Notes: generated by a model not told the origin, from the letters alone. A stretch of DNA of 64,000 nucleotides from a virus (IMGVR_UViG_3300032038_000036:1-64000), one strand, 5' to 3'; positions 31,957 through 61,952 are shown, counted from the stretch's first letter. A program made the numbers and translations.

Positions 31957-31965
31957 TATAAATAC

Positions 31966-32110
31966 AGTCAGCCAGGGAGACTATAAAATCTGTACTGATG
32001 AGACCTGGACGAAATATCCCCGATACGATCCAAATTGATATTTTAAGTACAGAGTCAGCCAGGGAGACTATAAAAACTTATCTGAAGAGACCTGGACGAA
32101 ACTTGATTCT
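31966..32110 (+). ncRNA. tandem hammerhead-ribozyme-like repeats (2 copies, 87-nt period)
   Basis: AGTCAGCCAGGGAGACTATAAAA-N-CTGA(T/A)GAGACCTGGACGAAA twice; CUGANGA and GAAA cores; CCAGG/CCTGG loop-loop pseudoknot. Confidence 0.75.
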
Positions 32111-50735: not shown

Positions 50736-50810
50736 GCTCTGGAAATATCGGTTCGAATCCGACTAAAGCACCTAATAAGGCATGGTAGACTAACGGTAAG
50801 TCAACAGAGT
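50736..50810 (+). ncRNA. circularly permuted tRNA-like RNA (degenerate acceptor)
   Basis: T arm tcgg ttcgaat ccga precedes D arm gact aacggta agtc; ends pair GCTCTG/CAGAGT. Confidence 0.6.
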
Positions 50811-50838
50811 ATTTTTCTCAATTTCTAAAATTGAATTA

Positions 50839-50869
50839 GTTCTTTGACATATTGGTACAACAAAATAAA
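50839..50869 (+). promoter_or_regulatory. boxA-like antitermination element
   Basis: GTTCTTTGACATATTGG...; 29 nt identical to 61240-61268. Confidence 0.6.
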
Positions 50870-50873
50870 CTAA

Positions 50874-50989
50874 AGATTCTATGGGTGCCCATTTGGTGAA
50901 AGTCAAATCTTAGGTGGGCCGGGGGTTCGAATCCCTCACGTTCCGCTGGGAGCGTTGGCAGAGTGGTTTAATGTAGCCCTAAGGAATCT
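50874..50989 (+). ncRNA. circularly permuted tRNA-Ser-like RNA
   Basis: 3' half GGGGGTTCGAATCCCTC-ACGTTCC, 4-nt linker, 5' half GGAGCGT-TGGCAGAGTGGTTTAATG; fully paired acceptor; CTTAGG/CCTAAG and AGATTC/GAATCT closing helices. Confidence 0.8.
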
Positions 50990-50993
50990 ATTT

Positions 50994-51082
50994 GGAGAGT
51001 AATGCTTGATGGTGATAGCGGGTGCCTGCTAAGCATTGCGTCCGGCTAATCACCGGATCTGGTTCGATTCCAGTGCTCTCCG
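50994..51082 (+). tRNA. tRNA-Ser(GCT), 8/4 fold
   Basis: 8-bp acceptor GGAGAGTA/TGCTCTCC, 4-bp T stem, long V arm, G73. Confidence 0.85.
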
Positions 51083-51085
51083 CAA

Positions 51086-51185
51086 GTATTCAAATATATC
51101 CGCTAAGGAGTCAGAAGTTTAAATCTTTCCCTGGGTTTGAATGGCCTGGGTGGCAGAATGTTGAATGATTGCAATATTTGAATAC
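51086..51185 (+). ncRNA. degenerate permuted tRNA-like RNA on 12-bp stem
   Basis: GTATTCAAATAT/ATATTTGAATAC; V arm, T-like arm, CCTGGGT/GCCTGGG acceptor, TGGCAGAATG D-like arm. Confidence 0.55.
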
Positions 51186-51191
51186 ATATTT

Positions 51192-51277
51192 GGAGAATGA
51201 ACTGCGGCGGCCCGCAGGACTGTCTTGAAAACAGCTCGTTCGGTGAAACGGATTGGGATCGACACCTACTTTCTCCG
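51192..51277 (+). tRNA. tRNA-Ser(TGA), 8/4 fold with 6-bp D stem
   Basis: GGAGAATG/CTTTCTCC; CTGCGG cggc CCGCAG; T loop ATCGACA. Confidence 0.75.
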
Positions 51278-51279
51278 CA

Positions 51280-51446
51280 AATTTACTGGTGAAGAATAGA
51301 GATACTTCATAAGTTTGCAAAACTGGTGGAAGCAAGTTCCTTGTCGGTTCGAGTCCGGCCCATGGTCATTATGTACCGCGGTGGTGAAACTGGTAAACAC
51401 GCTGGTCCTTTTATAATTATTCTTTATTCGACAATTCCGTAAATTT
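51280..51446 (+). ncRNA. Y-RNA-like module A carrying permuted tRNA-Leu-like domain
   Basis: AATTTAC-TGG-TGAA-GAATAGAG-ATACTTC ... CTTTATTC-GACAATT-CC-GTAAATT enclosing T arm, CCATGGT/ACCGCGG acceptor, then D arm. Confidence 0.75.
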
Positions 51447-51452
51447 TTTATT

Positions 51453-51524
51453 GGGTCTATGTCTGAGCGGTGTAGGTGGTGGTCTGCAAAACCATTTAGC
51501 CCGGTTCGACTCCGGGTGGGCCCT
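51453..51524 (+). tRNA. tRNA-Cys(GCA)
   Basis: gtggt ct GCA aa accat; U73. Confidence 0.9.
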
Positions 51525-51526
51525 CA

Positions 51527-51666
51527 AATTATCTGGTGTATATAAGAGTTACTTCGATTACTTTTTTAATTAAGTGGTTTTAATGCAATTTTTTCAGAAT
51601 TGATTCCTCGGTTCGAATCCGAGAGAAAGTTTCATAACAATACTTTTATAGCTGTTCCGATAATTA
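51527..51666 (+). ncRNA. Y-RNA-like module B enclosing whole tRNA-like cloverleaf (TTC anticodon, 51560-51631)
   Basis: GAGTTACTTC motif; AATTATC/GATAATT closing stem. Confidence 0.7.
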
Positions 51667-51670
51667 ATTT

Positions 51671-51747
51671 GGGCTGATAGCGTAGGTGGTAGTTTGGCGC
51701 GCTGGACTGAAAATCCAGAGGCGAAGGTTCGACTCCTTCTCGGCCCA
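51671..51747 (+). tRNA. tRNA-Phe(GAA)
   Basis: ctgga ct GAA aa tccag. Confidence 0.9.
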
Positions 51748-51754
51748 CAATAAT

Positions 51755-51827
51755 GGAGGTCTGGCAGATATGGTATATGCGCCGGACTGAAAATCCGGTT
51801 AACCTGGTTCGAGTCCGGGGGCCTCCA
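51755..51827 (+). tRNA. tRNA-Phe(GAA)
   Basis: ccgga ct GAA aa tccgg. Confidence 0.92.
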
Positions 51828-52113
51828 CAATATAAATTGCAACCCAAAATGATATGGAAAATAAGTTGTAATTTATATTATAAAGACTTAGAGTAAATTG
51901 AGCAAAAGTCCCCCAGACGTGTATCTAAGTTTAAATTGTTTAAGCTCAACCGATGTTGAGTAAACTCTGGAAGTAATTATATTAAACAATATGCGCATAT
52001 TCATAATTATTTTCAGTATCTTGAGAGTTATCTTGTCCTTAAGGCGCCAAGAAGTACCTCGCTTACGTGGAATGTAGAGGAAATATTAAGTACAAGGATT
52101 TGGAAAGATTTAT

Positions 52114-52190
52114 CTGGGTGTATGCCGGTAATTGGTGATCCGTCCTCGCTTGGAACGAGGTTTATGCAGGCTCGAGTCCTGTCACCCAGA
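52114..52190 (+). tRNA. tRNA-Pro(TGG)
   Basis: cctcg ct TGG aa cgagg; atypical D arm. Confidence 0.82.
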
Positions 52191-52599
52191 CTCAATTGTA
52201 ATTTTCAAGATATGCGGACAAACGTTAAAGCAGCTGCAAGTCCAGCTCCAGAAATGGTATAGGACTCGGTAAGACCTATGTGGGTCGGTAGCTACGAACC
52301 CCTTAGTGAGACGAGGAAAGTGAGAAGATTACAATTATCTTATATACGGAGATACGTGGTGAGACGCCTAGTAGGGCCCGCGAGGTTCGATAGTTTAAGA
52401 TAGAATACCGTATAACAAATAAATGTTAGGAGATTGCCCACCGAGATTTAAGGTAGCTCCTTAAACAGCTGAATGGGAAACAGGTAAGCTCTGTTATGAT
52501 ATTGAATATCGGCCGTAAAAATATCAACAACTTGAAGAGAAATAGTTAACATTTATTTTTGAAAAATATAATGATAATTTCTATTTATTATTATATAAT

Positions 52600-52673
52600 C
52601 GGGATGTAGTACAGTTGGTTAGTATTCGTGTTTTGGGAACATGAGGTCGCTGGTTCGAGTCCAGTCATCCCGA
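52600..52673 (+). tRNA. tRNA-Pro(TGG)
   Basis: cgtgt tt TGG ga acatg. Confidence 0.92.
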
Positions 52674-52803
52674 CATCTCAACCTTGGCAAATAATCAATT
52701 ATATGTGTGAGAGAGCCATTAAGACGCGATAACTGAGGTAATCACTGAAACACATGCGAGCAATAGAGATAGTTATCTTGAGGTTGTCAATAATTGATTT
52801 TAT

Positions 52804-52877
52804 AGGGAGGTGGCCTAATTGGTTAAGGTTCGTGATTTGGGATCACGAGAGTGCGGGTTCGAGTCCCGTCCTCCCTA
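52804..52877 (+). tRNA. tRNA-Pro(TGG)
   Basis: cgtga tt TGG ga tcacg. Confidence 0.9.
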
Positions 52878-52880
52878 CAA

Positions 52881-52960
52881 ATTGGCTAGTGAAGTGGAGA
52901 GTTACTTCAATGATAATGATTTAAGACTGACTATTTACTTTCTGCGCTTATTCTGCCAAT
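52881..52960 (+). ncRNA. Y-RNA-like module C (no cargo)
   Basis: ATTGGC-TAG-TGAA-GTGGAGAG-TTACTTC ... ACTTTCTGC-GCTTATT-CT-GCCAAT. Confidence 0.7.
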
Positions 52961-52966
52961 AAATTT

Positions 52967-53038
52967 GGCCCTGTCATCTAACGGTCAGGATCTCAGGTTT
53001 TCAACCTGGTCATCGGAGTTCGAGTCTCCGCGGGGCTA
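52967..53038 (+). tRNA. tRNA-Glu(TTC)
   Basis: tcagg tt TTC aa cctgg. Confidence 0.92.
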
Positions 53039-53043
53039 CAAAT

Positions 53044-53120
53044 AATTCCTTGTTGTAGAGTAGAGTTACTTCAAAGAATGTGGTTTTAATAAGATACTTT
53101 ATTCGCTTATTACAGGAATT
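53044..53120 (+). ncRNA. Y-RNA-like module D (no cargo)
   Basis: AATTCCT-TGT-TGTA-GAGTAGAG-TTACTTC ... ACTTTATTC-GCTTATT-AC-AGGAATT. Confidence 0.7.
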
Positions 53121-53123
53121 TAT

Positions 53124-53197
53124 GGGGATATCATACTAACAGGTTAGGTGGCAACCCTTTCAAGGTTGAGATACGGGTTCGAGCCCCGTTATCCCTA
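53124..53197 (+). tRNA. tRNA-Glu(TTC)
   Basis: caacc ct TTC aa ggttg. Confidence 0.88.
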
Positions 53198-53426
53198 CAA
53201 AGTTCACATCCCAGACAGATGGGTAAAGTTAGCATTAGAGATATGGGTTATCCGGAAATTTTATCACATATCACTTGCTGGAGTTGTCATAATCGAGTGC
53301 GCATCAAGAAAGAACTCCCATAGGCTTAAGCTTAAATACATTGGGCGAGATGGAACAGAACTTTATTTATGCACTTACTAAAACGCGAAAAACGGGTTCT
53401 TGAGGTTATCCATAAACCTCAAATAT

Positions 53427-53499
53427 TGGGCTGTCGTCTAACTGGTAAGGATACCGCCCTGATAAGGCGGCGATCTCGGATCATTCCCGAGTGGCCCAA
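53427..53499 (+). tRNA. tRNA-Ile(GAT), atypical T loop
   Basis: ccgcc ct GAT aa ggcgg; T loop ATCATTC. Confidence 0.75.
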
Positions 53500-53505
53500 C
53501 AACAT

Positions 53506-53579
53506 TGGGATATACAGTATAATGGTTAGTACAGCGGACTCTGACTCCGCAGGTTTCGGTTCGAATCCGGATATCCCAA
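53506..53579 (+). tRNA. tRNA-Gln(CTG)
   Basis: gcgga ct CTG ac tccgc; U1-A72. Confidence 0.9.
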
Positions 53580-53664
53580 CGTACCTTTTGGTTGTAGGTG
53601 ACTTTTCAGCATAGGCACAGCGAGCTTCGCGCCGCCGTTTACTAATAATGGAACCTTCATTTAT

Positions 53665-53738
53665 TGGGCTATGCTGTGTAACGGTTAGCACGTCAGCCTT
53701 TGAAGCTGAAGGTCTGAGTTCGAATCTCGGTAGCCCAA
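53665..53738 (+). tRNA. tRNA-Gln(TTG)
   Basis: tcagc ct TTG aa gctga; U1-A72. Confidence 0.9.
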
Positions 53739-53739
53739 C

Positions 53740-53864
53740 AATAAAGGTATAGGTTCGAATCCTATATGGCAGTATTGAAGTCTATATGACTGATGGTTAA
53801 TAGTTCTAGAATGTTAATCTGAAAATGTAAACTCTGTCATTGGTGTAGGAGGTAGCATATTATT
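53740..53864 (+). ncRNA. circularly permuted tRNA-like RNA with about 60-nt linker
   Basis: AATAA-AGGT-ATAGG ttcgaat CCTAT-ATGGCAG ... CTGTCAT-TG-GTGT aggaggta GCAT-A-TTATT; all four stems pair. Confidence 0.8.
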
Positions 53865-53943: not shown

Positions 53944-53947
53944 CTTT

Positions 53948-54173
53948 GGGAATTAGCAAAATGATTCGTATGAAAGTCATTATCTGTAAATATTTGCGTA
54001 AGGCCGCGATTAGGCCGAAAGTTCTCGAGATCAATAATATTTATAATAATGATAAGTAATGACAGAAAGAGAAATTAGTAAGATTAGCTAACTTACGAAA
54101 TTGAATTTGAAGAAGCGAACATACTGCGCTACCCGTGGGTGGGTAGAGGTCCTGTGAAAGTCAGTGGTTCCCG
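53948..54173 (+). ncRNA. large tRNA-like RNA with expanded D domain
   Basis: GGGAATTA/TGGTTCCC terminal stem, CTACCC/GGGTAG arm, AGGTC, CTG tgaaagt CAG T-like loop. Confidence 0.45.
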
Positions 54174-54268
54174 ACCGTATAATGAAGTTTTGAAAATTTC
54201 ATATTTTCAATAACACCGGTCCCATCCTATGCTACTCGAGGTAGGCATGGAACTAGGCCGGTGACCAT

Positions 54269-54445: not shown

Positions 54446-54588
54446 AATTCCTTGTTGAATTGAAGAGTTACTTCTTAATCCGCCAGAAACTTTGGATTTT
54501 TAGCTTAATTGGTTAGAGCGCGGGCCTGCAAAGCCCGAGGTGATGGTTCAAGCCCATAAATATACTTTTCGAGAATGTTACAGGAATT
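54446..54588 (+). ncRNA. Y-RNA-like module E enclosing tRNA-Cys(GCA)-like cloverleaf with decayed acceptor
   Basis: GAGTTACTTC; AATTCCT/AGGAATT; gctt aattggtta gagc g cgggc ct GCA aa gcccg. Confidence 0.72.
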
Positions 54589-54957: not shown

Positions 54958-55089
54958 CGCGGAGTGGTGAAATTTAAAATTAGACTTTATTCGCTGTTGC
55001 TTCGAATGAATGCTGTAGATTAGAGTTACTTCGGTATACACGCTTTTCAGGAAAAAAAGATTATGTTGGTTCGAGTCCAACCTCCGCGA
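54958..55089 (+). ncRNA. tRNA-like gene with permuted Y-like module F inserted in D loop
   Basis: CGCGGAG/CTCCGCG acceptor; GTG AAATT [about 54976-55032 insert ending GAGTTACTTC] GGTATA CAC. Confidence 0.72.
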
Positions 55090-55514: not shown

Positions 55515-55661
55515 GCGGATGTAGTATAAAGGAAAGTACACCGTTAAAAAGATTTTTATGACCTTTTAACGCTGTTACATCGTAAGATTGTTGTAGTTGA
55601 GAGTTACTTCAAATTATTGCATTCCAAGCCGGGGATGTTGGTTCGAGTCCAACCGTCCGCT
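55515..55661 (+). ncRNA. tRNA-Gly(TCC) interrupted in anticodon stem by permuted Y-like module G
   Basis: GCGGATG/CGTCCGC acceptor; CCG [55544-55618 insert] GC at TCC aa GCCGG. Confidence 0.75.
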
Positions 55662-58616: not shown

Positions 58617-58685
58617 CGGGAGTTAGCTCAACGATAGAGCCATGGATTTTACTGTGAGACGGTTGTTTAACTCAATCACTCCCGA
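58617..58685 (+). pseudogene. pseudo-tRNA with 6-nt anticodon loop
   Basis: perfect CGGGAGT/ACTCCCG acceptor, GCTC/GAGC D stem, degenerate D and T loops. Confidence 0.65.
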
Positions 58686-58690
58686 CAAAA

Positions 58691-58751
58691 TTGGTTACGC
58701 AGTAAATGGTACATGTATGCTAGCTATTTGGTTCGATTCCAACGTAACCAA
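58691..58751 (+). ncRNA. tRNA-like RNA lacking a proper anticodon arm
   Basis: TTGGTTACG/CGTAACCAA stem plus TTGG ttcgatt CCAA. Confidence 0.55.
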
Positions 58752-58942
58752 CTAATAATTTGGATGCCTGCATTATCTTTTTTGACGGGTGAAAGCAGAT
58801 GGAAGATAAAAACCAGCTCGGCCATTAAACAACAGAATGTGTCCAAATAAATAATAGGTTGAATAATGACGTAACCTTAATCGTGATGGTCATTCGTGTG
58901 GTTCGGTGCCTAAGACTGCGTTAATGGAACAAGGACACTTAT

Positions 58943-59788: not shown

Positions 59789-59854
59789 TAGAACTTATCC
59801 GGTGAATGCGCGCGGGATGAGAATACTAGGAGGGTTCGACTCCCTCAGTTCTAT
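59789..59854 (+). ncRNA. tRNA-like RNA lacking anticodon arm
   Basis: TAGAACT/AGTTCTA plus GAGGG ttcgact CCCTC. Confidence 0.6.
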
Positions 59855-59886
59855 TTATATAATAAATTAATATAATAGAGAGAAAA

Positions 59887-60728: not shown

Positions 60729-61038
60729 CAAAATTAAATATTATTTAATAACAAATATTATTTGATTTTTAGTTCTTTGAAATATTGAACTCAAGAGAAA
60801 TAAAATCCACTGGGTTATTGAAGAATAGGTTCAATTCCGATTCTATAACGTAGTCAGCCGGTACTCCTAAATAGGCAAAAGGAGCAATAATTCAGTAAAG
60901 GTACAAAGGTACTATATATGAGGGATTGAAAATTTCCATGGGAATTTGAAAATCAGGGTAAAGTGACCCACCACATGTAGAGCAAGGATTCGCACTTAAA
61001 TGAACATTATAGAAGAATAGTACTGGATTTTTATAAAT

Positions 61039-61878: not shown

Positions 61879-61952
61879 GGGCTTGCATGTACCAAGGCTG
61901 GCGAGGTTCCCTTGCAAGGAACTTGTGGAGAGTTCGATTCTCTTCGGGTCCA
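61879..61952 (+). tRNA. tRNA-Ala(TGC)
   Basis: gttcc ct TGC aa ggaac; G3:U70. Confidence 0.87.

What the first reader, a model, noticed from the sequence alone, without database searches (positions are those of the whole stretch)
50736..53864. Five circularly permuted tRNA-like genes with no anticodon loop
Seen: the 3' half (T arm, acceptor 3' strand) precedes the 5' half (acceptor 5' strand, D arm) at 50736-50810, 50874-50989, 51086-51185, 51322-51406 and 53740-53864. In 50874 and 53740 the 7-bp acceptor is fully paired across the halves, and the RNA ends close the anticodon stem. Four lack the Y-like module. Established: permuted tRNA genes are known from red algae and a crenarchaeon, and YrlA has a similar topology. 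Inference: elbow-preserving, anticodon-less tRNA mimics, e.g. uncleavable decoys or inhibitors of anticodon nucleases, or mimics of anticodon-cut tRNA.
Basis: partly seen in the sequence, partly recalled or inferred. Interest (0 to 1): 0.75.

Follow-up and report, generated by a model that had tools for sequence, protein, structure and literature searches.

The report
Phage Y-RNA-like tRNA mimics
Five small RNA genes in a giant gut or rumen phage's tRNA cluster fold like tRNAs with the two halves swapped and no anticodon loop; this is the known shape of bacterial YrlA "Y RNAs", which partner the Ro60 protein that relatives of this phage encode.

Summary
All five loci are real, conserved structured RNAs on the tRNA strand. 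Their order is T arm, closed acceptor hairpin, D arm, and the two RNA ends pair where the anticodon stem would be.

Compensatory base changes in related phage contigs support the fold:
- c2: 99.6% of cells paired, and all 7 acceptor pairs covary.
- c5: 90.9% paired. The acceptor is rewritten from ATGGCAG/CTGTCAT to TTCCCTG/CAGGGAA across a 61-nt insert.
- c4: 89% paired.
- c3 and c1 are almost invariant in sequence, so they give few informative changes.

They are not deletion debris and not decodable permuted tRNA genes.

The architecture is the published YrlA architecture (tRNA-mimicking Y RNA). The decisive context:
- Near-complete relatives encode a Ro60 (TROVE+vWA) protein and RtcB.
- In more distant phages the same permuted RNAs sit directly beside the Ro60 gene.
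- c4 (full extent 51281-51445) is a complete Y RNA with a bulged terminal stem.
- Most c2 homologs carry the YrlA GNCGAANG motif.

Caveats: this 35%-complete contig has no Ro60 gene, four elements lack the Ro-type stem, and Rfam's YrlA model does not match.

The anticodon-nuclease decoy idea is untested and has no direct support.

Verdict: a new variant of a known kind. Other notes of this scan cover the Y-like module on the same genome.

The parts
50737..50809 (+). c1: permuted class-I tRNA-like RNA. It has closing stem 50737-50741/50805-50809, a 5-nt variable loop, T arm 50747-50763, an invariant 24-nt stretch in place of the acceptor (50764-50787, at most 3 bp) and D arm 50788-50802. It starts 5 nt after tRNA-Glu.
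   Evidence: It is at least 95% identical in L200, L001, L202 and L195, while the neighbouring c2 diverges far more. T-stem pair 49-65 is A.C here and G.U in the four relatives.
50874..50989 (+). c2: permuted class-II tRNA-like RNA. H1 is 50874-50879/50984-50989; the internal loop is UAU/UAAG; H2 is 50883-50886/50976-50979. The variable arm 50887-50919 has GGUGAAAG in its loop. T arm 50921-50937; acceptor hairpin 50938-50955 with tetraloop GCUG; D arm 50958-50974. It ends 4 nt before tRNA-Ser(GCT).
   Evidence: The MFE fold is a permuted cloverleaf. There are 9 distinct homologs (L070, L195-L207); 99.6% of cells pair and all 7 acceptor pairs covary. Most homologs have (G/A)ACGAAAG in the variable-arm loop.
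51086..51185 (+). c3: permuted tRNA-like RNA with a 12-bp closing stem 51086-51097/51174-51185, a small variable hairpin, T arm 51113-51129 (loop UUUAAAU), acceptor hairpin 51130-51150 and D arm 51153-51172. It lies between two class-II (long-variable-arm) tRNA genes: ARAGORN's tRNA-Ser(GCT) 50994-51083 and the sub-threshold tRNA-like 51191-51277.
   Evidence: It is 99% identical in L002 and 88% in L142/L139, against about 74% for the flanks. The outer pair is G-C, G.U or A-U, and the variable hairpin changes from TCC/GGA to TTC/GAA.
51281..51445 (+). c4, full extent: a complete Y-RNA-like gene. The terminal stem is 51281-51286/51439-51444, with bulged U 51287 and GG/CC 51288-51289/51437-51438. 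The internal loop is UGAA opposite GACAAUU. A 9-bp stem lies at 51294-51302/51421-51429, followed by conserved UACUUC 51303-51308. These enclose the tRNA-Leu-like permuted domain 51322-51406: variable hairpin, T arm 51343-51359, acceptor hairpin 51360-51381 and D arm 51384-51400.
   Evidence: Terminal stem: 95.3% paired, 7 pairs changed on both sides. tRNA-like domain: 89.2% paired, 8 pairs. Both halves are most similar to the phage's tRNA-Leu genes. Re-permuted, ARAGORN reports a tRNA-shaped gene but with a 2-nt anticodon and no amino-acid assignment.
53740..53864 (+). c5: permuted class-I tRNA-like RNA. It has closing stem 53740-53744/53860-53864, T arm 53749-53765 and acceptor strands 53766-53772 and 53834-53840. 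The strands are separated by a 61-nt insert of two hairpins (53773-53833; conserved loop UAUAU and CUGAAARUGUAAA). D arm 53843-53858. It starts right after tRNA-Gln and ends 5 nt before tRNA-Ile.
   Evidence: Homologs are in L001, L138 and L142/L139. The acceptor is 100% paired with 4 of 7 pairs changed on both sides; 90.9% of all cells pair. Re-permuted with a dummy anticodon loop, ARAGORN calls it a tRNA.

Best explanation
The five loci are genes for YrlA-type Y RNAs, or for their free tRNA-like domains. YrlA RNAs are non-coding RNAs that fold into the tRNA L-shape but are wired in permuted order (T arm, closed acceptor stem-loop, D arm). They have no anticodon loop because the 5' and 3' ends pair where the anticodon stem would be.

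Shown:
- The fold and its conservation.
- All five lie on the tRNA strand, abutting tRNA genes.
- Relatives of this phage encode Ro60 and RtcB.

Inferred:
- They are co-transcribed with the tRNA array.
- RNase P and 3' trimming of the neighbouring tRNAs release them, leaving the closing stems as their ends.
- c4, with its bulged terminal stem, and probably c2, with a CGAA-type loop, bind the phage Ro60 ring. They would gate it or tether it to an effector such as host PNPase, as shown for Deinococcus, Salmonella and Thermus phage phiLo. The likely task is to degrade or check structured RNA (tRNA, rRNA) during infection, alongside RtcB repair of cut tRNAs.
- The forms without a Ro-type stem (c1, c3, c5) present the tRNA L-shape (the canonical elbow nucleotides in c1 and c5, not in c3) to whatever tRNA-binding partner the YrlA tRNA domain normally engages. 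Whether they touch Ro60 is open.
For: (1) Architecture. [quoted passage not shown]

(2) Selection on the fold.

(3) Ro60 in the clade.
- TROVE hits occur in both near-complete relatives, G008 and G007.
- The G008 protein is TROVE+vWA, and its best PDB match is Thermus phage phiLo Ro60.
- Homologs at 74-83% identity occur in the contigs that hold orthologs of c2 to c5: the L002, L138 and L070 contigs.

(4) Association.
- The same permuted RNA lies 0.3-1 kb from Ro60 in L020, L049 and L006/L145, and in the Lak-like L187, which has two copies just upstream of the ORF.
- TROVE is present in 4 of 5 contigs with the permuted form and in 0 of 10 control large phage contigs with ordinary tandem tRNAs (Fisher p 0.0037).

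(5) c4's terminal-stem module (GUGA..GRGWUACUUC) recurs within 50-500 nt of Ro60 genes in eight or more contigs.

(6) 6 of 9 c2 homologs have the CGAA-containing motif in the unpaired variable-arm loop; only two of them (GACGAAAG in L070 and L196) match GNCGAAN0-1G exactly, the other four reading AACGAAAG.

(7) RtcB is present in G007, G008 and G002, as in the Salmonella rsr-yrlBA-rtcBA operon (PMC7790460).
Against: - No TROVE gene is on this contig or on the L001 contig. Both are only 35-44% complete. In relatives Ro60 lies about 190 kb from the array, so its absence here is uninformative, but its presence here is not shown.
- The complete Lak-B1 genome has no TROVE gene.
- L083, a complete 295-kb genome with a permuted element, has none either.
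- Rfam YrlA scores only 13.5 bits on c2 and 22.7 bits at best in the genome, against a cut-off of 69. That model also misses the RNAs next to Ro60 genes.
- c1, c3 and c5 have neither the module nor a CGAA motif.
- The window's c2 has UGAA, not CGAA. The relaxed motif is no more frequent in the array than chance (22 observed, 18 expected).
- The paralogs do not share the conserved D and T stem sequences that define bacterial YrlA.
- There are no expression or binding data.
Confidence: 0.6

Rival explanations
1. Ro60-independent decoys or inhibitors. The L-shaped, anticodon-less mimics soak up or block host tRNA-targeting defence enzymes, such as anticodon nucleases or enzymes that modify or cut the acceptor end, and so protect the phage's 61 or more tRNAs.
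For: - Canonical elbow nucleotides (G18G19, the T54-A58 type T loop, U8/A14, the 15-48 pair) are intact in c1, c2, c4 and c5.
- Four of five lack the Ro-type stem.
- They sit inside a very large tRNA array, a feature usually linked to translation supply or defence evasion.
- c1's unpaired 'acceptor' stretch is invariant in five contigs, as expected of a recognition site.
Against: - Known anticodon nucleases recognise the anticodon loop, which is exactly what is missing.
- Nothing in the window or its relatives links these RNAs to a nuclease.
- The same architecture is tied to Ro60 genes elsewhere.
Confidence: 0.12
2. Processing elements of the array. The tRNA-like folds recruit RNase P, RNase Z or modification enzymes to cut or stabilise the polycistronic transcript (tRNA punctuation, as with mascRNA/MALAT1). 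The released RNAs would have no function of their own.
For: - Every element abuts a tRNA gene within 0-5 nt on at least one side.
- 7-bp acceptor stems make RNase P cleavage plausible. The 7-bp YrlA of M. smegmatis is cut by RNase P (PMC4201824).
- A conserved promoter-like box precedes c2.
Against: - Flanking tRNAs already supply RNase P and RNase Z sites, so extra punctuation is redundant.
- Strong sequence conservation of loops and of c1's unpaired stretch, together with the conserved insert in c5, suggests a trans-acting product.
Confidence: 0.1
3. Split, chargeable tRNA mimics. RNase P opens the acceptor loop and the 3' end is trimmed and given CCA. The resulting two-piece anticodon-less RNA is aminoacylated by synthetases that ignore the anticodon (SerRS, LeuRS) and is used or sequestered outside normal decoding.
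For: - c2 and c3 are class II with long variable arms, and c4 is tRNA-Leu-like in both halves.
- c2's discriminator position is G, as in bacterial tRNA-Ser (from general knowledge of tRNA-Ser, not tested here).
- M. smegmatis YrlA is cut by RNase P and receives CCA (PMC4201824).
Against: - No CCA is encoded.
- Tetraloop-closed acceptors are poor RNase P substrates according to the YrlA literature.
- There is no evidence for an acceptor of the amino acid. This is pure inference.
Confidence: 0.07
4. True circularly permuted tRNA genes, as in Cyanidioschyzon or Thermofilum. The ends would be ligated, for example by RtcB, and the acceptor opened to give a decoding tRNA.
For: The 3' half precedes the 5' half. 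The clade encodes RtcB. The re-permuted c5 is called as a tRNA by ARAGORN, and the re-permuted c4 is reported as a tRNA-shaped gene with a 2-nt anticodon and no amino-acid assignment.
Against: - The ends form continuous helices of 5-12 bp that run to within 0-5 nt of the neighbouring tRNAs, so there is no room for a 7-nt anticodon loop. I found no bulge-helix-bulge motif by eye; no formal search was run.
- c2's 'anticodon stem' continues through an internal loop into a further 6 bp.
- c1, c2 and c3 are not called even after a loop is added.
Confidence: 0.03
5. Neutral debris: remnants of deletions within tandem duplicated tRNA genes.
For: Tandem duplicates are common in this array (two Pro, four Glu, two Phe and so on). 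A central piece of a duplicate pair would automatically have complementary acceptor strands.
Against: - Compensatory changes keep every helix intact in diverged contigs.
- c1 and c3 are more conserved than their flanks.
- Only c4 resembles any tRNA of this phage.
Confidence: 0.02

Closest known systems
YrlA (Y RNA-like A; Rfam RF02553), the tRNA-mimicking Y RNA bound by bacterial Ro60/Rsr (Chen et al. 2014, PMC4201824; crystal structure described in bioRxiv 10.1101/312249)
   Same: - The order is T arm, closed acceptor stem-loop, D arm.
- The 5' and 3' ends form the stem that replaces the anticodon arm, and there is no anticodon loop.
- The tRNA tertiary-contact nucleotides are kept.
- A variable arm starts with YUAY (c2).
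- c4 has a long bulged terminal stem.
- Most c2 homologs carry the GNCGAANG motif.
- The genes lie next to tRNA genes.
- Ro60 and RtcB are encoded in the same phage clade.
   Different: - The RNAs are not next to the Ro60 gene. In close relatives it is about 190 kb away, and it is absent from this partial contig.
- There are five or six diverse paralogs that mimic different tRNA classes, rather than one conserved D/T-stem sequence.
- Four have no Ro-type stem.
- One has a 61-nt insert in the acceptor loop.
- In c2 the CGAA motif sits in the variable-arm loop, not near the 5' end.
- Rfam scores are far below the cut-off.
[quoted passage not shown]
   Same: These are phage-encoded Ro60 proteins with phage-encoded Y-like RNAs. 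The clade's Ro60 is most similar in the PDB to phiLo Ro60. A CGAA-type motif lies in an unpaired region flanked by the 5'-3' stem.
   Different: The phiLo Yrls lie just upstream of the Ro60 gene and are described as stem-bulge-stem RNAs; no tRNA-like domain is mentioned in the passages I read. Here the RNAs are tRNA-shaped, multiple and embedded in a tRNA array.
Circularly permuted tRNA genes of Cyanidioschyzon merolae and Thermofilum pendens
   Same: The 3' half (T arm, acceptor 3' strand) precedes the 5' half (acceptor 5' strand, D arm) in the gene.
   Different: Those genes yield normal decoding tRNAs through a circular intermediate, and their termini carry the anticodon-loop sequence. Here the termini form a closed helix with no loop.
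Two-piece (permuted) tmRNA genes and other tRNA-like elements (mascRNA, viral TLS)
   Same: They mimic the tRNA acceptor/T-arm, and permuted ssrA genes share the permuted gene order. Weak Rfam tmRNA hits fall on the T arms.
   Different: There is no tag reading frame, no pseudoknots and no free CCA end. The hits score 7-15 bits against a cut-off of 47.

Membership tests
YrlA-type Y RNA | Domain order T stem-loop, acceptor-like stem-loop, D stem-loop, with the RNA's 5' and 3' ends pairing in place of the anticodon arm and no anticodon loop | tested here: met
   with covariation. In c1 the acceptor stem-loop is reduced to about 3 bp.
YrlA-type Y RNA | Nucleotides for tRNA tertiary contacts (T-loop UUCRANY, D-loop GG, U8/A14, 15-48 pair) | tested here: met
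   Read from the sequence. They are present in c1, c2, c4 and c5. They are not met in c3, whose T loop is UUUAAAU and whose D loop has no GG.
YrlA-type Y RNA | Ro60-binding region: a terminal stem with a bulge or internal loop and the GNCGAAN0-1G motif | tested here: inconclusive
   - c4 has a covarying bulged terminal stem with GGUGAAG.
- 6 of 9 c2 homologs have the CGAA-containing motif ((G/A)ACGAAAG; only L070 and L196 match GNCGAAN0-1G exactly), but the window copy has GGUGAAAG.
- c1, c3 and c5 have none.
- The relaxed U-variant motif is not enriched in the array.
YrlA-type Y RNA | Encoded adjacent to an Ro60 (rsr, TROVE) gene | tested here: not met
   There is no TROVE gene in the 100.7-kb contig. 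In close relatives Ro60 exists but lies about 190 kb from the array. In G007 it lies between two array blocks, about 3.5 kb from the nearest called tRNA gene. Adjacency is met only in more distant phages: L187, L020, L049 and L006.
YrlA-type Y RNA | Reaches the Rfam RF02553 gathering score (69 bits) | tested here: not met
   The best scores are 22.7 bits at 67242-67341 and 13.5 bits over c2. The model also misses the permuted RNAs that sit beside Ro60 genes, so this test has low power.
YrlA-type Y RNA | Physical binding to Ro60; modification by TruB/DusA | not testable with these tools
   This needs EMSA or RIP and modification mapping.
Circularly permuted tRNA gene (decoding tRNA) | 3' half upstream of the 5' half, with complementary acceptor strands | tested here: met
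Circularly permuted tRNA gene (decoding tRNA) | The termini supply a 7-nt anticodon loop (U33, anticodon, R37) after joining, with a processing motif at the junction | tested here: not met
   The closing helices of 5-12 bp run to within 0-5 nt of the flanking tRNAs. c1, c2 and c3 are not recognised as tRNAs even with an artificial loop.

The most novel reading that the evidence does not exclude
The forms without a Ro-type stem (c1, c3, c5, c6 and perhaps c2) are a separate class of free-standing permuted tRNA mimics. They would work without Ro60, for example as elbow or acceptor decoys against host tRNA-targeting defences, or as RNase-P-opened split RNAs that can be charged without an anticodon. 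In that case the megaphage would run a modular kit: Ro-binding stem alone, tRNA-like domain alone, both fused, and the stem grafted into tRNAs.
Probability: 0.2. Interest if true: 0.8.

Novelty: new variant of a known kind. Interest (0 to 1): 0.5.

Why it matters
Y RNAs and Ro60 are best known from human autoimmunity and from a few bacteria, and what the tRNA-like half of YrlA binds is still unknown. This megaphage clade offers several things at once:
- a Ro60 gene and RtcB;
- a dozen Ro-type stems;
- at least six different tRNA-shaped domains, some detached from the stem.

All are inside tRNA arrays and have natural sequence variation that defines each helix. That makes a natural dissection set for asking which part binds Ro60 and which part binds the effector, and why a phage carrying 60 or more tRNAs needs RNA surveillance.

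It also shows that Rfam's YrlA model misses phage Y RNAs, so their spread in viromes is underestimated. Finally, such elements can confuse tRNA annotation in phage genomes.

Tried and rejected
- **Rfam scans.** At gathering and at E<=10 only weak DUF2693, tmRNA and tRNA-Sec hits overlap the elements. These were rejected as chance or as T-arm matches.
- **blastn against the phage collection.** Only tRNA-level matches were found. Lak-B1 is not syntenic and has no TROVE gene.
- **Split tRNA with a long intron.** I tested whether a 5' half pairs with the next element's 3' half. The acceptor strands do not pair (for example GGCATGG against ACGTTCC), so this was rejected by inspection.
- **The c5 pattern scan of IMG/VR.** It mostly returned AT-rich chance matches. 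The L141 hit was not a homolog.
- **The L138 blast hit to c1.** It is just two ordinary tandem tRNAs.
- **The relaxed motif GN[CU]GAAN0-1G as a Ro-site marker.** It is not enriched (22 against 18 expected), so I do not lean on it.
- **ARAGORN on re-permuted constructs.** The re-permuted c5 is called as a tRNA and the re-permuted c4 only as a tRNA-shaped gene with a 2-nt anticodon and no amino-acid assignment; three of the 20 mismatched-half control chimeras were also called (two of them built on c4's 3' half). This gives only partial support for a canonical cloverleaf, as expected for c2 (33-nt variable arm), c3 (odd loops) and c1 (no acceptor).
- **Other orphan T arms.** The one at 60825 has a 7/7 partner 160 nt away, an AT-rich match judged to be chance. 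The one at 67258 appears to belong to a normal-order tRNA with an insert, not to a permuted element; its 5' acceptor partner was only a tentative 6/7 match.

Full report
**Setting**

The window is the first 64 kb of a 100.7-kb viral contig. CheckV puts it at 35% complete. It is about 27% G+C outside the RNA genes. From 50.6 kb onward it is a dense array of tRNA genes on the + strand: 42 in the window and 61 in the contig.

The neighbouring 1839-aa gene and a conserved box, CTTTGACATNTTGGTACAA, retrieved syntenic arrays from about nine large IMG/VR contigs of 39-435 kb. This is a Lak-like megaphage lineage. GenBank Lak-B1 is only distantly related.

Yes. A scan for T arms that belong to no called tRNA found one in each of the five loci.

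- **c2 (50874-50989).** RNAfold gives a perfect permuted cloverleaf without any constraint. It has two closing helices separated by a UAU/UAAG internal loop, a 33-nt variable arm, a T arm, a 7-bp acceptor hairpin with a tetraloop, and a D arm.
- **c5 (53740-53864).** It has a 7/7 acceptor across a 61-nt insert.
- **c3 (51086-51185).** It has a 12-bp terminal stem and a GU-rich 7/7 acceptor hairpin.
- **c4.** I first misread its acceptor. The real layout is CCATGGT-CATTATGT-ACCGCGG (6/7), followed by a D arm that closely matches the phage's own tRNA-Leu genes (from memory it also resembles E. coli tRNA-Leu).
- **c1.** It has closing stem, T arm and D arm, but only a vestigial acceptor.

With a simple descriptor, 7/7 acceptor matches followed by 'TG' and a D arm occur at three orphan T arms. 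They occur at none of the T arms inside called tRNAs, which serve as the natural control for tandem genes. Shuffled sequence gives 0.8 hits against 35 at the looser 6/7 cut.

**Selection on the fold**

Orthologs were found by blastn, by the descriptor and by pattern scans.

| Element | Sequences | Cells paired | Pairs changed on both sides |
|---|---|---|---|
| c2 | 9 distinct | 99.6% | 11 |
| c5 | 4 | 90.9% | 15 |
| c4 tRNA-like domain | 5 | 89.2% | 8 |

- **c2.** All seven acceptor pairs covary. No shuffle out of 500 reached the observed values, and slid registers pair at only 33-58%.
- **c5.** The acceptor changes from ATGGCAG/CTGTCAT to TTCCCTG/CAGGGAA or CGGGGAG while staying 7/7. The first insert hairpin covaries under a constant UAUAU loop.
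- **c4.** The C.A mismatch seen here becomes an A-U pair in L002 and L142.
- **c3.** It is 88-99% identical in contigs whose flanks are about 74% identical. Its few changes are compensatory.
- **c1.** It is at least 95% identical in four other contigs, including its unpaired middle. One T-stem pair is A.C here and G.U in the other four.
- **Origin.** Only c4 resembles any tRNA of this phage (Leu, both halves).

A sixth element of the same kind lies just outside the window, at contig 64562-64634. It has compensatory changes in L144 and L131.

**What is it?**

The layout is the layout published for YrlA, the tRNA-mimicking subclass of bacterial Y RNAs: T, then a closed acceptor-like stem-loop, then D. 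The ends pair in place of the anticodon arm, there is no anticodon loop, and the variable arm begins with YUAY. [quoted passage not shown]

Rfam's YrlA model gives only 13.5 bits on c2 and 22.7 bits at best in the contig, so the link had to be tested in other ways.

**The Ro60 link**

A loose IMG/VR pattern for 'T loop, 14-24 nt, class-II D arm' returned mostly tandem tRNAs. It also returned about ten permuted elements in unrelated phage contigs.

- Four of the five such contigs tested encode a TROVE (Ro60) protein. None of ten control large phage contigs from the same scan that had ordinary tandem tRNAs does. Fisher p is 0.0037. L020 and L049 are related to each other, so the true independence is somewhat lower.
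- In L020, L049 and L006 the RNA lies 0.3-1 kb upstream of the Ro60 gene.
- Within the Lak-like lineage, both near-complete genomes encode Ro60: G008 (376 kb) and G007 (410 kb).
- The G008 protein has TROVE and vWA domains. Its best solved relative is the Ro60 of Thermus phage phiLo.
- tblastn finds homologs at 74-83% identity in the very contigs that carry orthologs of c2 (L070), c3/c4 (L002) and c5 (L138).
- A more distant member, L187 (59% identity), has two permuted tRNA-like RNAs immediately upstream of its Ro60 ORF.
- RtcB is also encoded in G007, G008 and the L070 contig. This echoes the Salmonella rsr-yrlBA-rtcBA operon (PMC7790460).
- In L002 and G008 the Ro60 gene is about 190 kb from the array. 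Its absence from this 100-kb fragment is therefore expected and does not argue either way.

**c4 is a complete Y RNA**

Extending c4 in both directions reveals a terminal stem:

- AUUUAC/GUAAAU at 51281-51286 and 51439-51444;
- a bulged U;
- GG/CC;
- an internal loop, UGAA opposite GACAAUU;
- a 9-bp helix at 51294-51302 and 51421-51429;
- a conserved UACUUC.

This stem encloses the tRNA-like domain. RNAfold finds it, although the z-score of the whole 169-nt fold is unremarkable. Across five contigs it is 95% paired, with seven pairs changed on both sides.

This 'module' (GUGA..GRGWUACUUC) was flagged in other notes of this scan. It recurs within 50-500 nt of Ro60 genes in L186, L187, L188, L189, L192 and L194. 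It also occurs five to six times in tandem upstream of Ro60 in L020 and L049. That is strong circumstantial evidence that it is the Ro60-binding stem. The window holds seven copies in the array and the contig twelve.

**c2 and the CGAA motif**

In six of nine c2 homologs the unpaired loop of the variable arm reads (G/A)ACGAAAG, which contains the CGAA core of the YrlA motif GNCGAAN0-1G; only L070 and L196 (GACGAAAG) match that motif exactly. The window copy has GGUGAAAG. I do not lean on the U variant, because the relaxed motif is no more common in the array than chance.

**Mechanism**

Shown:
- the folds and their conservation;
- strand and abutment to tRNA genes;
- Ro60 and RtcB in the clade;
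- the association of this RNA design and of the module with Ro60 genes.

Inferred:
- The RNAs are cut out of the array transcript by the enzymes that mature the flanking tRNAs. This would leave the closing stems as termini: c2 ends 4 nt before tRNA-Ser, c3 lies 2 and 5 nt from its neighbours, and c1 and c5 start right after a tRNA.
- c4, and probably c2, load onto the phage Ro60 ring. They would gate it or tether it to an effector such as host PNPase, as shown for Deinococcus, Salmonella and phage phiLo (PMC12135203).
- The stem-less forms present a tRNA L-shape to the still unknown partner of the YrlA tRNA domain.

I put 0.6 on this overall reading. My confidence is higher (about 0.9) that these are functional YrlA-topology tRNA mimics, and lower that all five touch Ro60.

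**Rivals**

- The anticodon-nuclease decoy idea cannot be excluded, but it has no direct support. It also removes the very loop such enzymes recognise.
- True permuted tRNA genes are unlikely. The terminal helices leave no room for an anticodon loop, and c1, c2 and c3 are not called tRNAs even when a loop is supplied.
- Punctuation elements and RNase-P-opened chargeable split RNAs remain minor possibilities. Seven-bp acceptors are what made M. smegmatis YrlA an RNase P substrate.

**Novelty**

Phage Ro60 and Y-like RNAs are published for mycobacteriophages, CcrColossus, phage G and phiLo (PMC4201824, PMC12135203). A jumbo-phage survey notes TROVE with 'a tRNA-like partner' in a subset of phages (PMC7824862).

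I found no paper that describes any of the following:
- Y RNAs inside megaphage tRNA arrays;
- multi-paralog sets that mimic different tRNA classes;
- detached tRNA-like domains;
- an acceptor-loop insert.

Hence this is a new variant of a known kind, with moderate interest.

Noticed in passing
contig G000 64562-64634 (just beyond the window's end): A sixth permuted tRNA-like element lies right after tRNA-Tyr. It has closing stem CACTG/CAGTG, T arm TGAGG/CCTCA, a short acceptor hairpin and D arm TTTA-GAAATGGT-TAAA. Homologs in L144 (94%) and L131 (73%) show compensatory T-stem and acceptor changes.
   Followed up: partly
window 51533-51600, 52886-52960, 53044-53120, 54450-54480, 55010-55040, 55590-55620 (and five more in the contig beyond the window, near 66096, 66409, 66585, 67373 and 68997): Twelve copies of the GUGA..GAGWUACUUC stem module lie in the contig's tRNA array, seven of them in the window; some stand alone and some sit inside tRNA-like genes. 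The same module flanks Ro60 genes in other phages, so it is probably the Ro60-binding stem. Stand-alone copies would be YrlB-like.
   Followed up: partly
window 58617-58690, 58692-58755, 59789-59855, 61879-61950; contig 69819-69890: These are short normal-order tRNA-like elements. A 7/7 acceptor stem and a T arm are present, but only about 35-49 nt lie between the acceptor 5' strand and the T arm. That is too short for both a D arm and an anticodon arm.
   Followed up: no
window 54958-55089 and 55515-55661; contig 66029-66165, 66341-66470, 66508-66655: These are normal-order tRNAs with 7/7 acceptors but 105-125 nt between the acceptor strands, which implies large inserts. Several inserts contain the module.
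   Followed up: no
window 51191-51277 and 52116-52188: Two class-II-like tRNA genes are missed by ARAGORN. Rfam scores the first as tRNA-Sec at 43.8 bits, below the cut-off of 47, and the second as tRNA at 30.1 bits.
   Followed up: no
window 50841-50859: The conserved box CTTTGACATATTGGTACAA, which overlaps a TTGACA-16-TAAACT promoter-like site, lies just upstream of c2. It is found in nine related contigs, twice in several of them.
   Followed up: partly
L141:12720-13380 (also L001 and L002, after the same box): Where the window has c2, relatives carry a conserved non-coding stretch of about 650 nt (GGAAGACCTTGTAGTGGCAAACACGTGAT...). It is absent from the window. There is a weak RAGATH-33 hit at 39 bits against a cut-off of 120.
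   Followed up: partly
window 31965-32047: A RAGATH-1 hammerhead ribozyme scores just above the Rfam gathering score (57.4 against 56.3 bits).
   Followed up: no
L049:4541-5724 and L020:6955-7857: In cyanophage-like contigs, five to six tandem Y-type modules (GGUGCGNAG..GGGWUACUUC), one permuted tRNA-like RNA and, in L049, a manA RNA motif lie upstream of a Ro60 gene.
   Followed up: partly
window 51840-52100, 52200-52600, 53200-53420, 53945-54265: Several gaps of 200-400 nt inside the array have no tRNA, no convincing ORF and no Rfam hit. They may hold further unannotated RNAs.
   Followed up: no
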